Assembly: GCA_000004695.1 (NCBI GenBank)
Contig: CM000153.2
Location: 2,688,001-2,752,000 of the forward strand
Direction of reading: 5' to 3'
Length of the DNA: 64,000 bases
DNA from: Dictyostelium discoideum
Lineage: Eukaryota
Shown: positions 6,360-8,687 of the stretch, piece after piece
Layout of the letters: each line of letters opens with the position of its first letter
Numbering within the stretch: position 1 is the first letter of the stretch
Notes under the pieces: generated by a model
Databases searched by the model: none
Seen by the model: the letters and a program-made list of their open reading frames with translations, nothing else
Told to the model about the DNA's origin: nothing
Translations under genes and position numbers: made by a program

Positions 6360-8687
6360 ATGACAGAGAAATCAACAAGTAATAGTAATACACCTGTTGT
6401 TGTACATTCAAATAATGGTACACCTCAACCAATGATAGGGTTAAATAGAAAACTTTCAAATAAATCAAAAACTTCAACTCCTAATAATAATAGTAATAAT
6501 AATAATAATAATAATAATATCAATAATAATAATAAAAATATTCATTCACCATCTAGATTATTAGATACTATAAATAAACTTCAATTAGATGCATTAGAAT
6601 ATGTTGATTTACCAATACCAACCAATATATATGGTTTATCAAGTATACCATTATTATTAACTGATATTACTGATACAAGTAATAATAATAACAATGAAAA
6701 GACAAATAATAAAAATAATAATACGATTGTTGAAACAACATTAGCACAATCAATTGGACAAATTAGTATGAATAATAGTACAATTATACCAAATAATAGT
6801 AATAATAATAATAGTAGTAAGAATATATTCATATCAAAACAGAATAAATTATATATATCAAGTAGAACAAGTTTAATATCTGTTGAATCTGAGGAAGATT
6901 TAGAAACTGGTTCATTATCTTGGTTAACAAATGAAATTATATCAAATTCTGATATAAATCCTCCACCACCACCACCACCACCACCACAAACAACATCAAC
7001 AACATCAACAACAACAGCAACAACATCAACACAAACAACTACACAAGCAACAACAACAGCAACATCAAGAAATCCATCATCACCATCAAAAATTACTACA
7101 AATTCAACAACTAGTACACAACCTAATCAATTTGTTGAGAATCAAATTGTATCAGTCGATTCATTCCTTGATGAAGGACAACCAGTAATTGCATTCACTC
7201 AAGTAACACCATTTCAACTAAATCAACCAAATAATTCAAAAGGTAAAATATTATTTAATATTAGTGATTATGAATCATCAATAAATGATAGTAGTGGTGG
7301 TAGTGGTGATACTACTCCCACAATTCCATCAACAACATCGACATCAACACAACAAACAAATAGTCAACAAAACTTTAATAATAATAATAATAATACAACT
7401 ACGGCAGCACCACCACCACAACAACCTCCACCAAAGAAAAGATTAGATATTTTAAATTTTAGTTTTCAAATATTTGATATAGATTTCATACCATTTCATC
7501 TTACTCATTCAAGAATTGAACAATTTGAAGATGGAAATAGTAAAAATGTATTTCTTTTATCTGGTAGTGATGAAAAGATACATATGTATTACTATAATGG
7601 TAACGAATTTGTCGAGGGTGATATATCAAGATATTTTCCAGAGATGTGTAATTTAGGTTCAAATGCTTTAAAAATTGAAATTAAATATTATCAAAACTTT
7701 AGATTAGTTGCAATTGGTTGCCAAAATGGTTTATTAAAATTATCAATTATAAATGGTTTGTATTGTTAATTATTATTATCATTAATTATTATTATTATTA
7801 TTATTATTATTATTATTATTATTATTATTATTATTATTATTATTATTATTATTATTATTATTATTATTATTATTATTATTATTATTATTAATTATTCATT
7901 GATAATTAATTTTTTATTATTTTAAAATAAAATAAATTTAGAAATAACCAAAGAAATAAAGAGTGAATCTTTTTTTTTAGATGGTCCAGTTCAGACACTT
8001 TGTATATATAATGAAAATATTGATTTAAATAATAGTAATAATAATCATATGTATAATTGTTATAATTATAATAATAACAATAACAATAATAATGATATTG
8101 ATAGTTTTGGTAATTTTGATATTAATCAAGATGATTCAATATTTTCCATTATAAATGAAATTAAAAGTAATACTGATCAAATTATTAATAATAGTGAACA
8201 ACAAATGAAAAAAATGCATTTATTGGTCGGTAGTATCATTGGATATTCGGTAGTTTATAGAAACATTTTCAATCAATTACTTCAAGATTCTCATTTATTG
8301 GAATATTCAGATTCTTTCGATAGTGTTACAAGTGTCCATGTTTTTGATATTGATGCAGATGGTCAAAATGAATTATTAATTGGTACATATGGTATGGAAC
8401 TATTGGTTTATAAAAAACAACAACAACCAATTGATAATGATAGTAATGGTTTTATATATAAATTAAATAGCCATCGTCATTTTTCTCATCCAATTCTTGG
8501 TATTCAAACTATTGAATTGATGAATGATGGTATTAAACAATTAATCATTATGACTATGTTTGGTGTCTATATTATGCGTGTTCCAATCTTAAAATATCAA
8601 GAAGAATTATCAACAAGAATTGAATTGATTAAAGAAATTTTAAAATTAAAACAGCAACAACAACAACAACAACAACAACAAACTTAA
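6360..8687 (+). CDS. Kaptin (KPTN)-like beta-propeller protein, 2 exons. It has a long N/T/S/P-rich N-terminal low-complexity region.
   Basis: The true start is probably the ATG at 6360 (MTEKSTSNS...). The upstream part of track ORF 6222.. is a poly-F translation of a poly-T tract. Exon 1 runs to about 7759-7764 and exon 2 runs from about 7964-7981 to 8687, across an intron made of (ATT)n. The exact splice pair is ambiguous (donor GTATTG or GTTAAT; acceptor at 7963 or 7980). Direct similarity to human kaptin is clear: FHLTHSRIEQFEDGNSKNVFLLSGSDEKIHMYYYNGNEF vs [48 protein letters not shown] vs LSALGCQSGYVRV; and DIDADGQNELLIGTYGMELLVYKK vs [24 protein letters not shown]. Confidence 0.5.
7786..7890. 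repeat. (ATT)n microsatellite, about 35 units, forming most of the intron of the kaptin-like gene.
   Basis: A perfect ATT tandem repeat is directly visible. Confidence 0.9.

What the first reader, a model, noticed from the sequence alone, without database searches (positions are those of the whole stretch)
6360..8687. Kaptin (KICSTOR component) ortholog in an amoebozoan
Several blocks are near-identical in pattern to human KPTN (VFLLSG.D..IH.Y; L.A.GCQ.G...; D.D.DG..E.L..TYG.ELL.YK). In mammals, KPTN with ITFG2, SZT2 and KICS2 forms KICSTOR, which recruits GATOR1 to lysosomes for mTORC1 nutrient sensing. Kaptin also binds actin. A clear ortholog here argues that at least part of KICSTOR predates the metazoa and may act in amoeboid nutrient sensing or actin dynamics. 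The gene has a long poly-N/ST/P N-terminal region and an intron made of (ATT)n.
Basis: partly seen in the sequence, partly recalled or inferred. Interest (0 to 1): 0.6.

Follow-up and report, generated by a model that had tools for sequence, protein, structure and literature searches.

The report
Dictyostelium kaptin gene, already annotated

Summary
Window 6360-8687 (+) is a two-exon gene: exon 1 6360-7755, a 186-nt GT..AG intron 7756-7941 that is almost entirely (ATT)50, and exon 2 7942-8687. It encodes 713 aa.

The exact protein is NCBI KAM9942697.1 (D. discoideum). Its AX4 counterpart is DDB_G0284957 / UniProt Q54NW3, which UniProt already names "Kaptin".

Evidence for orthology to human KPTN:
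- Sequence: the best PDB hit is human KPTN from KICSTOR cryo-EM entries, E=3.5e-38. The next hit is BBS2 at E=0.18.
- Family profile: a 42-member profile hits KPTN at 5e-159 and ITFG2 at only 4e-4.
- Fold: an AlphaFold model matches KPTN chains at E~1e-30 with TM 0.83-0.84. The next fold is at 2.8e-8.

The "long N-terminal low-complexity region" is really four or five disordered insertions spliced between the first propeller blades. Homology settles the ambiguous splice in favour of the acceptor at 7940/41.

Kaptin also occurs in other dictyostelids, two discosean amoebae and early-diverging fungi. A 2025 paper already showed KICSTOR outside animals.

I could not test whether Dictyostelium has ITFG2, SZT2 or KICS2. 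A role in switching off mTORC1 on starvation is therefore inferred, not shown. Novelty is low.

The parts
6360..7755 (+). Exon 1 of the kaptin gene (residues 1-465 plus the first base of codon 466). It holds the N-terminal extension, propeller blades 1 to about 5, and three low-complexity insertions.
   Evidence: ORF and translation. The spliced product is identical to NCBI KAM9942697.1. Residues 356-489 align to human KPTN 121-257.
7756..7941 (+). Intron, phase 1, GT..AG, 186 nt. It is almost entirely an (ATT)50 microsatellite at 7769-7921.
   Evidence: Splice enumeration. TRF period 3, 50 copies, score 235. Both NCBI models use this junction.
7942..8687 (+). Exon 2 (residues 466-713 plus the TAA stop). 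It holds the last propeller blades, a poly-N insertion, a C-terminal helix and a poly-Q tail.
   Evidence: residues 557-693 align to human KPTN 273-409. AF2 model pLDDT is above 90 here.
7942..7980 (+). A 39-nt segment (EITKEIKSESFFL) that would be lost if the alternative in-frame acceptor AG at 7979-7980 were used. It is retained in the supported model.
   Evidence: It aligns to human QRSREVLQMWSVL and has full family occupancy. It forms predicted strand 471-477. The 700-aa alternative product is not in the protein collection.
6222..6359 (+). In-frame upstream ATG and 46 codons used by the older AX4 model (XP_639954.1, 759 aa). This is poly-F translation of T-rich DNA and is probably 5' UTR or promoter, not coding.
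   Evidence: P0002 minus its first 46 residues equals P0001. The Synstelium orthologue's N-terminus aligns with the Met at 6360.
6657..6827 (+). Insertion 1 (about residues 100-156), N/T-rich, disordered, specific to D. discoideum.
   Evidence: Near-zero occupancy in the 42-sequence family alignment. pLDDT below 50 for residues 112-149.
6945..7124 (+). Insertion 2 (about residues 196-255), poly-P then T/S/Q-rich. This insertion is dictyostelid-wide and contains a degenerate copy (SRNPSSPSK) of a motif conserved in other dictyostelids.
   Evidence: TRF CCA and AACAAC repeats at 6963-7089.
7275..7457 (+). Insertion 3 (about residues 306-366), S/T/N/P-rich, disordered.
   Evidence: Zero occupancy for residues 309-355. 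pLDDT below 50 for residues 310-366.
8028..8180 (+). Insertion 4 (about residues 495-545), poly-N and acidic, disordered in its first part and helical at its end.
   Evidence: TRF (AAT)n at 8028-8097.
8586..8681 (+). C-terminal alpha-helix (residues 681-712) following the propeller, ending in poly-Q.
   Evidence: DSSP on the AF2 model shows helix 681-712. It aligns to the human KPTN C-terminal helix region, residues 400-418.

Best explanation
This is the Dictyostelium discoideum kaptin gene (DDB_G0284957; UniProt Q54NW3), a true orthologue of human KPTN. I put that identity at about 0.97.

The protein is a seven-bladed beta-propeller followed by a C-terminal helix. Dictyostelium-typical disordered homopolymer insertions have been spliced into surface loops.

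Inferred mechanism (not shown here, about 0.55): as in mammals, it pairs with an ITFG2-like propeller and sits on an SZT2-like scaffold. This KICSTOR-like complex holds the RagA GAP GATOR1 at the lysosome. When nutrients run out, mTORC1 is switched off, and in Dictyostelium that step gates autophagy and the growth-to-development transition.
For: Identity:
- The spliced protein matches an NCBI D. discoideum protein exactly, and its cluster-mate is named Kaptin by UniProt.
- The best solved-structure sequence hit is human KPTN in KICSTOR entries 9v6e, 9o5a and 25ge, E=3.5e-38.
- The family profile hits KPTN at 5e-159 over nearly full length, against ITFG2 at 4e-4.
- The AF2 model has pTM 0.71 and core pLDDT above 90, with about 28 strands plus a C-terminal helix.
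- Foldseek ranks 1-6 are all KPTN chains, E 1e-30 to 1e-28 and TM 0.83-0.84 normalised by target. The next fold is at 2.8e-8.
- In the reverse direction, human KPTN hits it at 3e-41.

Selection:
- Orthologues in Heterostelium, Cavenderia and Acytostelium share 52-53% identity in the C-terminal domain. Synstelium aligns at 40% overall.
- Further orthologues occur in the discoseans Thecamoeba and Vermistella and in Glomeromycota and Mortierellomycota.

Pathway context:
- D. discoideum has a working sestrin-MIOS(GATOR2)-mTORC1-autophagy axis (PMC11204349).
- KICSTOR subunits co-occur in non-animal lineages (PMC11836306).
Against: No other KICSTOR subunit was demonstrated in D. discoideum. The one search I could make, with human ITFG2 residues 131-351 against the word-indexed protein database, returned only animal ITFG2. 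That search is too insensitive to count as evidence of absence.

No localisation, interaction or phenotype data exist for this gene in the searched literature.

Kaptin has a second, mTORC1-independent activity in vertebrates, F-actin barbed-end capping (bioRxiv 10.64898/2026.07.27.740990). That activity could be the conserved one.

The neighbouring genes are unrelated, as expected for a eukaryote, so genomic context gives no information.
Confidence: 0.55

Rival explanations
1. The protein is a genuine kaptin, but in Dictyostelium it works mainly or only as an actin regulator. It would bind and cap F-actin barbed ends in pseudopods or macropinocytic cups, independently of any KICSTOR-like complex. 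This is not mutually exclusive with the best explanation.
For: Kaptin was first described as an actin-associated protein. A 2026 preprint reports barbed-end binding and capping, and an mTORC1-independent function in zebrafish and chick neurons that depends on R59. No KICSTOR partner was shown in Dictyostelium.
Against: The loop that carries human R59 (QDLRQKIRPVA) is EEDLETGS in D. discoideum, with no basic residue. The aligned column is also not Arg/Lys in Capitella, a spider or Glomeromycota, although the alignment in this loop is uncertain. The strongest conservation covers the whole propeller and the C-terminal helix, as expected for a subunit buried in a complex. Kaptin co-occurs with the other KICSTOR subunits in fungi.
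Confidence: 0.25
2. The protein is a generic FG-GAP, integrin-alpha, BBS2-like or ITFG2-like beta-propeller, and it resembles kaptin only through shared repeat motifs.
For: Weak sub-threshold Pfam hits to BBS2_Mid (E=0.0033), the BBS7 propeller (0.0065) and FG-GAP_3 (0.37). The D.D.DG..E motif is FG-GAP-like, and one bacterial FG-GAP repeat protein appears among the weak hits (P0131).
Against: None of those Pfam hits reaches its cutoff. KPTN outscores ITFG2 by about 155 orders of magnitude at profile level and BBS2 by more. The fold match to KPTN is TM 0.83-0.84, against 0.23 for BBS2 and 0.34-0.42 for ITFG2. Homology spans the whole KPTN length, not just the repeat motif. P0131 is not hit by human KPTN.
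Confidence: 0.02
3. The gene is a decaying relic or mis-annotated open reading frame, swamped by microsatellite expansion and no longer making a functional protein.
For: About 40% of the protein is low-complexity sequence (233 of 713 residues have pLDDT below 50). The intron is a 150-nt microsatellite. The donor GTTTGT is not the usual GTAAGT.
Against: The reading frame is intact over 2.1 kb. All insertions fall in loops between predicted strands, and the ordered core is modelled at pLDDT above 90. Core motifs that are invariant across the family are kept. Such homopolymer insertions are normal for D. discoideum proteins. Orthologues persist in at least five dictyostelids.
Confidence: 0.03

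Closest known systems
Human KPTN (kaptin, UniProt Q9Y664), a subunit of the KICSTOR complex (PDB 9v6e, 9v80, 9v86, 9v9n, 9van, 9o5a, 25ge)
   Same: Same fold, a seven-bladed propeller plus a C-terminal helix (Foldseek TM 0.83-0.84). The signature blocks are collinear: VFLLSG.D..IH.Y, GCQ.G, DGP, VVYR and D.D.DG..E.L..TYG.ELL.YK. The conserved core is of similar length, at about 27% identity.
   Different: 713 aa against 436 aa. The Dictyostelium protein has a roughly 65-residue N-terminal extension, four disordered homopolymer insertions and a poly-Q tail. The basic loop around human R59 is acidic here. Membership of an actual KICSTOR complex is untested.
Kaptin orthologues of other Amoebozoa: Heterostelium album PPL_08003, Cavenderia fasciculata DFA_02270, Acytostelium subglobosum, Synstelium polycarpum, Thecamoeba quadrilineata, Vermistella antarctica
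   Same: Heterostelium, Cavenderia and Acytostelium share 52-53% identity in the C-terminal domain. Dictyostelids share the N-terminal extension and the insertion after the WLT.EI strand.
   Different: Apart from the UniProt name for the D. discoideum entry, all are annotated only as hypothetical or uncharacterised. The insertions differ in length and composition. D. discoideum has a degenerate version of the KSHLQRLPLSHKSRIPPLPxK motif found in the others.
Fungal KICSTOR described in 'Non-dikarya fungi share the TORC1 pathway with animals' (Sci Rep 2025, PMC11836306)
   Same: It shows that KPTN, ITFG2, SZT2 and KICS2 exist outside animals, in Mucoromycota, Glomeromycota, Mortierellomycota and basal opisthokonts. 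My searches recover the same Glomeromycota and Mortierellomycota kaptins.
   Different: That study used D. discoideum only as the outgroup for the species tree and reports nothing on amoebozoan KICSTOR. The present gene pushes kaptin back to the common ancestor of Amoebozoa and opisthokonts.
ITFG2 (kaptin's propeller partner in KICSTOR) and the BBS2/BBS7 propellers
   Same: Distantly related FG-GAP-like propellers. There is weak profile similarity around the D.D.DG..E blade motif.
   Different: E=4e-4 (ITFG2) and 0.29 (BBS2) against 5e-159 for KPTN. TM 0.34-0.42 and 0.23 against 0.83-0.84. This protein is not a member of either family.

Membership tests
KPTN / kaptin protein family (InterPro IPR029982) | Significant, near full-length sequence similarity to human KPTN, which is the best hit over other propeller families | tested here: met
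   phmmer against PDB: KPTN E=3.5e-38, in two stretches covering human residues 121-257 and 273-409; next hit BBS2 at 0.18. Family profile: KPTN 5e-159 covering human residues 11-418; ITFG2 4e-4.
KPTN / kaptin protein family (InterPro IPR029982) | Reverse search: human KPTN retrieves this protein, and the paralogous propeller ITFG2 does not | tested here: met
   Local phmmer: human KPTN residues 11-418 hit P0001 at 3.1e-41 and 161 of the 168 retrieved sequences. The ITFG2 fragment hits none of the amoebozoan proteins. A strict reciprocal best hit against the whole D. discoideum proteome was not possible.
KPTN / kaptin protein family (InterPro IPR029982) | KPTN fold: seven-bladed beta-propeller followed by a C-terminal helix | tested here: met
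   AF2 model with pTM 0.71 and core pLDDT above 90, about 28 strands plus helix 681-712. Foldseek pdb ranks 1-6 are KPTN chains, E 1e-30 to 1e-28, TM (target) 0.83-0.84.
KPTN / kaptin protein family (InterPro IPR029982) | Family signature blocks present and collinear | tested here: met
   VFLLSGSDEKIHMY, IGCQNG, DGPVQ, VVYRN and DIDADGQNELLIGTYGMELLVYK align to nearly invariant family columns.
KPTN / kaptin protein family (InterPro IPR029982) | Named as kaptin by a curated or automatic public resource | tested here: met
   The same 90% cluster contains UniRef100_Q54NW3 'Kaptin n=1 Tax=Dictyostelium discoideum'.
KICSTOR complex (KPTN-ITFG2-KICS2-SZT2), functional membership | An ITFG2 partner is encoded in the same genome | tested here: inconclusive
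   A search with human ITFG2 residues 131-351 returned 155 hits; all of the named ones among the 120 listed are animal, and none is from Dictyostelium. The word-indexed search also missed human KPTN when queried with the Dictyostelium kaptin core, so it is too insensitive to show absence.
KICSTOR complex (KPTN-ITFG2-KICS2-SZT2), functional membership | SZT2 scaffold and KICS2 are encoded in the same genome | not testable with these tools
   No tool gives access to the D. discoideum proteome or genome beyond this window. The only SZT2-sized ORF in the window (19152-29585, minus strand) is a HUWE1/TOM1-type HECT ligase.
KICSTOR complex (KPTN-ITFG2-KICS2-SZT2), functional membership | The GATOR arm of mTORC1 nutrient sensing is present in the organism | tested here: met
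   From the literature: D. discoideum mios (DDB_G0276673, GATOR2) and sestrin knockouts lose drug-induced mTORC1 inhibition and autophagy (PMC11204349). GATOR1 itself was not checked.
KICSTOR complex (KPTN-ITFG2-KICS2-SZT2), functional membership | Physical association with GATOR1 at lysosomes, and a requirement for mTORC1 inhibition on starvation | not testable with these tools
   This needs experiments. No paper in the library mentions Dictyostelium kaptin or DDB_G0284957.
Generic FG-GAP / integrin-alpha, BBS2, BBS7 propellers | Pfam model score at or above the gathering threshold | tested here: not met
   FG-GAP_3 scores 11.9 bits (cutoff 26.9), BBS2_Mid 17.9 (cutoff 27) and Beta-prop_BBS7 16.3 (cutoff 27).
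Kaptin as an F-actin barbed-end capper (vertebrate activity) | A basic residue equivalent to human R59 (zebrafish K55), required for F-actin binding | tested here: inconclusive
   The D. discoideum loop is EEDLETGS (residues 178-185) and has no Lys or Arg. Other dictyostelids have K or R in this loop. Capitella, spider and Glomeromycota sequences lack it at the aligned column. The loop alignment is uncertain.

The most novel reading that the evidence does not exclude
Kaptin is present across Amoebozoa (five dictyostelids and two discoseans). If it is accompanied there by ITFG2, SZT2 and KICS2, then a complete KICSTOR-GATOR nutrient-sensing arm existed in the common ancestor of Amoebozoa, fungi and animals. 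That would contradict the still-repeated statement that KICSTOR is mammalian- or vertebrate-specific. In Dictyostelium the complex would control the starvation-triggered switch from growth to development, making the organism a haploid, genetically tractable model for human KPTN- and SZT2-related disease.
Probability: 0.45. Interest if true: 0.45.

Novelty: already known. Interest (0 to 1): 0.25.

Why it matters
Reviews as late as 2021 call KICSTOR "mammalian-specific" and "not present in non-vertebrates" (PMC8534245). A 2025 study moved it back to early fungi. An amoebozoan kaptin pushes at least this subunit back to the ancestor of Amoebozoa and opisthokonts.

It also points to Dictyostelium as a simple system for a question raised by human KPTN-related neurodevelopmental disease: which of kaptin's two proposed jobs, mTORC1 restraint or actin capping, is ancestral. 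In Dictyostelium, starvation, mTORC1 shut-off and development are tightly linked.

However, the gene is already in public databases under the name Kaptin. The value is therefore as a pointer to an unexploited model, not as a discovery.

Tried and rejected
1. The full-length protein as a query for the word-indexed homologue search returned only itself, because poly-N/T/Q words swamped the candidate list. A low-complexity-free core found five kaptins. The exhaustive HMMER search with the C-terminal 148 aa was the productive route.
2. Pfam has no kaptin model, and only sub-threshold BBS2, BBS7 and FG-GAP hits appeared. This was uninformative for membership but useful for rejecting those families.
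3. I suspected the 3477-aa ORF at 19152-29585 (minus strand) might be SZT2 because of its size. It is a HUWE1/TOM1-type HECT E3 ligase.
4. A Foldseek search of afdb50 was intended to find a Dictyostelium ITFG2 by fold, but that library was not available.
5. Human ITFG2 residues 131-351, recovered from a PDB alignment, found only animal ITFG2 among its named hits. This is inconclusive for Dictyostelium.
6. Wolfson et al. 2017 (PMC5360989) is not held. No paper pairs kaptin or DDB_G0284957 with Dictyostelium. No KICSTOR structure paper is held, so subunit-interface residues could not be checked.
7. The alternative splice acceptor at 7979/80 (700-aa product) is in frame but rejected. It would delete a conserved beta-strand, and its product is absent from the protein collection.
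8. The upstream ATG at 6222, used by the AX4 model, is rejected as the start. It adds 46 residues of poly-F read from T-rich DNA with no counterpart in orthologues.
9. tRNA and Rfam scans of the window found nothing.
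Full report
**What is in the sequence**

The window is very AT-rich: GC is 12-38% in 500-nt windows over the first 16 kb. The protein-cluster look-up below identifies the organism as Dictyostelium discoideum.

At 6360 an ATG opens a frame that runs to a stop at 7767-7769. A second frame runs from about 7942 to a TAA at 8685-8687. I enumerated all GT..AG pairs that restore a single open frame. The natural solution is:
- donor G|GTTTGT at 7755/7756
- acceptor TTTAG| at 7940-7941
- a 186-nt phase-1 intron and a 713-aa product

A second in-frame acceptor at 7979-7980 would give a 700-aa product lacking EITKEIKSESFFL.

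**Identity**

The 713-aa product is an exact match to NCBI KAM9942697.1, [quoted passage not shown]. The same 90% cluster holds the AX4 model EAL64942.1 / XP_639954.1 (DDB_G0284957), which UniProt (Q54NW3) names "Kaptin". The 700-aa alternative is not in the collection.

The AX4 model is 46 residues longer because it starts at an upstream in-frame ATG at 6222. Those residues (MNCFYFFFYFFFFNFFF...) are read from T-rich DNA, and the rest of the two models is identical. The N-terminus of the Synstelium orthologue aligns with the Met at 6360, so 6360 is the better start.

**Is it really kaptin?**

- Sequence against solved structures. phmmer against all PDB sequences gives human "KICSTOR complex protein kaptin" (9v6e_C, 25ge_A, 9o5a_E) at E=3.5e-38. 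Two collinear stretches match: residues 356-489 to human 121-257, and 557-693 to human 273-409. The only other hit under E=1 is BBS2 at 0.18. ITFG2 sits in the same PDB entries and is not hit.
- Pfam. It has no kaptin model. BBS2_Mid, the BBS7 propeller and FG-GAP_3 all score well below their cutoffs.
- Exhaustive search. HMMER with the C-terminal 148 aa found 544 proteins at E<=1e-3 and 151 at E<=1e-10.
- Family profile. A profile of 42 of these hits human KPTN at 5e-159 over residues 11-418, ITFG2 at 4e-4 and BBS2 at 0.29.
- Reverse direction. Human KPTN residues 11-418 hit the Dictyostelium protein at 3e-41 and 161 of the 168 retrieved sequences. A human ITFG2 fragment hits none of the amoebozoan proteins.
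- Fold. An AlphaFold2 model built on the 42-sequence alignment has pTM 0.71. 311 residues have pLDDT of 90 or more. It shows about 28 beta-strands, consistent with seven four-stranded blades, and a C-terminal helix at 681-712. Foldseek against the PDB puts six KPTN chains first, at E 1e-30 to 1e-28 and TM 0.83-0.84 normalised by target. BBS2 follows at 2.8e-8 (TM 0.23), and ITFG2 is at about 5e-6 (TM 0.34-0.42).

The family alignment and the model confidence agree. Kaptin homology begins at about residue 65-75 (LDALEYVDLPIPTNIYGL against human FTRFSSQSNVYGL).

The long poly-N/ST/P stretch is not one N-terminal extension. It is an N-terminal tail (residues 1 to about 64) plus four insertions in loops between strands, at about 100-156, 196-255, 306-366 and 495-545. 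All are low-confidence or disordered, and all are unaligned in non-dictyostelid kaptins.

The 13 residues after the intron align to human QRSREVLQMWSVL. They have full occupancy in the family and form predicted strand 471-477 at pLDDT about 95. The acceptor at 7940/41 is therefore correct. Using 7979/80 would delete a blade strand.

**Distribution**

Named cluster members show kaptin in the following groups:
- Dictyostelids: Heterostelium album, Cavenderia fasciculata, Acytostelium subglobosum and Synstelium polycarpum
- Discosean amoebae: Thecamoeba quadrilineata and Vermistella antarctica
- Fungi: Glomeromycota (Acaulospora, Funneliformis) and Mortierellomycota (Actinomortierella)
- Many animals, including insects, chelicerates, an annelid, a cephalopod and a starfish

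All of the amoebozoan proteins are hit by human KPTN at E between 5e-17 and 3e-41.

**What is already known**

- A 2021 review calls KICSTOR "mammalian-specific" and "not present in non-vertebrates" (PMC8534245).
- A 2025 paper showed KPTN, ITFG2, SZT2 and KICS2 in early-diverging fungi and basal opisthokonts. It used D. discoideum only as a species-tree outgroup (PMC11836306).
- No paper in the searched library links kaptin, KPTN or DDB_G0284957 specifically to Dictyostelium.

So the gene is annotated but unstudied, and the evolutionary point is a modest extension of published work.

**Mechanism**

What is shown is orthology and an intact, conserved propeller. What is inferred is function.

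In mammals, KPTN pairs with ITFG2 on the SZT2 scaffold. KICSTOR tethers GATOR1 to lysosomes so that nutrient withdrawal inactivates RagA and mTORC1 (as summarised in PMC8534245 and PMC11836306). D. discoideum has a functional sestrin-MIOS(GATOR2)-mTORC1-autophagy axis (PMC11204349), so the pathway into which kaptin would plug exists. I rate a KICSTOR-like role at about 0.55.

The main rival is an actin role, which is not exclusive. A 2026 preprint reports barbed-end capping by kaptin that depends on R59 and is mTORC1-independent in zebrafish. In D. discoideum the corresponding loop is acidic (EEDLETGS) with no basic residue. The aligned column is not basic in several invertebrate and fungal kaptins either. 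This gives no support to a conserved R59-type actin interface, but the loop alignment is uncertain.

**What could not be done**

I could not search the Dictyostelium genome for ITFG2, SZT2, KICS2 or GATOR1.
- The only available route, a word-indexed search with a human ITFG2 fragment, returned only animal proteins among its named hits and is too insensitive to be meaningful.
- The AlphaFold-database fold library was unavailable.
- Within the window, the only SZT2-sized ORF is a HUWE1/TOM1-type HECT ligase.
- The remaining neighbours are unrelated: a paxillin/PINCH-like LIM protein, Sel1, an LCM methyltransferase, Sec3, syndetin, trehalose-phosphate synthase and BTG.

**Verdict**

Novelty is "already known", because public databases already call this protein Kaptin and non-animal KICSTOR is published. 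Interest is 0.25. The residual value is as a prompt to test KICSTOR function in a tractable amoeba.

Noticed in passing
window 7062-7091 (residues 235-244); orthologues P0003, P0008, P0009, P0010: Inside the dictyostelid-specific disordered insertion there is a short conserved motif. It reads KSH(L/M)QRLPLS(H/L)KSRIPP(L/M)PxK in Synstelium, Heterostelium and Acytostelium, and QQHLSRLPLSHKHKMPPLSSMK in Cavenderia. In D. discoideum it is degenerate (TSRNPSSPSK). It fits a PxxPxK, SH3-class-II-like pattern and may be a lineage-specific docking site.
   Followed up: partly
window 6891-6914 (residues 178-185): The loop equivalent to the one carrying human R59, the F-actin barbed-end binding residue, is EEDLETGS here, with four acidic and no basic residues. 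Three other dictyostelids have K or R in this loop. The alignment in this loop is uncertain.
   Followed up: partly
window 6222-6359: The reference AX4 gene model (XP_639954.1, 759 aa) starts 138 nt upstream and translates T-rich DNA into 46 residues of mostly Phe. The newer NCBI model and the orthologue alignment support the ATG at 6360.
   Followed up: yes
P0009 (Cavenderia fasciculata DFA_02270, 1277 aa): This kaptin orthologue is fused to roughly 650 unrelated N-terminal residues. This is probably a merged gene model rather than a real fusion.
   Followed up: no
window 7942-7980: Two in-frame acceptors lie 39 nt apart (AG at 7940-41 and AG at 7979-80, the latter behind a T9 tract). The downstream one looks like a good acceptor, so minor alternative splicing that removes a beta-strand cannot be excluded without RNA data.
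   Followed up: partly
window 3906-5567 (+): The upstream neighbour is a 553-aa protein with five LIM-domain matches and GPGL(M/V)ST repeats. Its best PDB hits are paxillin and PINCH. As read here, the exact ORF product is not in the protein collection.
   Followed up: partly
window 19152-29585 (-): A single ORF of 3477 aa encodes a HUWE1/TOM1-type HECT E3 ubiquitin ligase, with DUF908, DUF913, UBM and HECT domains. The E-value to human HUWE1 is 9e-168.
   Followed up: yes
window 43379-47364 (+): A run of four or five ORFs carries consecutive parts of Vps54_N and Syndetin_C. This is a multi-exon syndetin (VPS50, EARP complex)-like gene.
   Followed up: no
window 47507-49979 (-): Two adjacent ORFs carry Glyco_transf_20 and Trehalose_PPase. 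This is a split, intron-containing trehalose-6-phosphate synthase/phosphatase gene.
   Followed up: no
window 9041-9119: A perfect (TAT)26 microsatellite encodes a 26-residue poly-Asn run in a minus-strand ORF (8982-9503) that has no Pfam match.
   Followed up: no
P0131 / P0303 (metagenomic, labelled BamB-like): A prokaryotic FG-GAP repeat protein matches the kaptin D.D.DG..E blade motif nine times (E=8e-12). Human KPTN does not hit it, but the ITFG2 fragment does. It shows how the shared motif could mislead a motif-only reading.
   Followed up: partly
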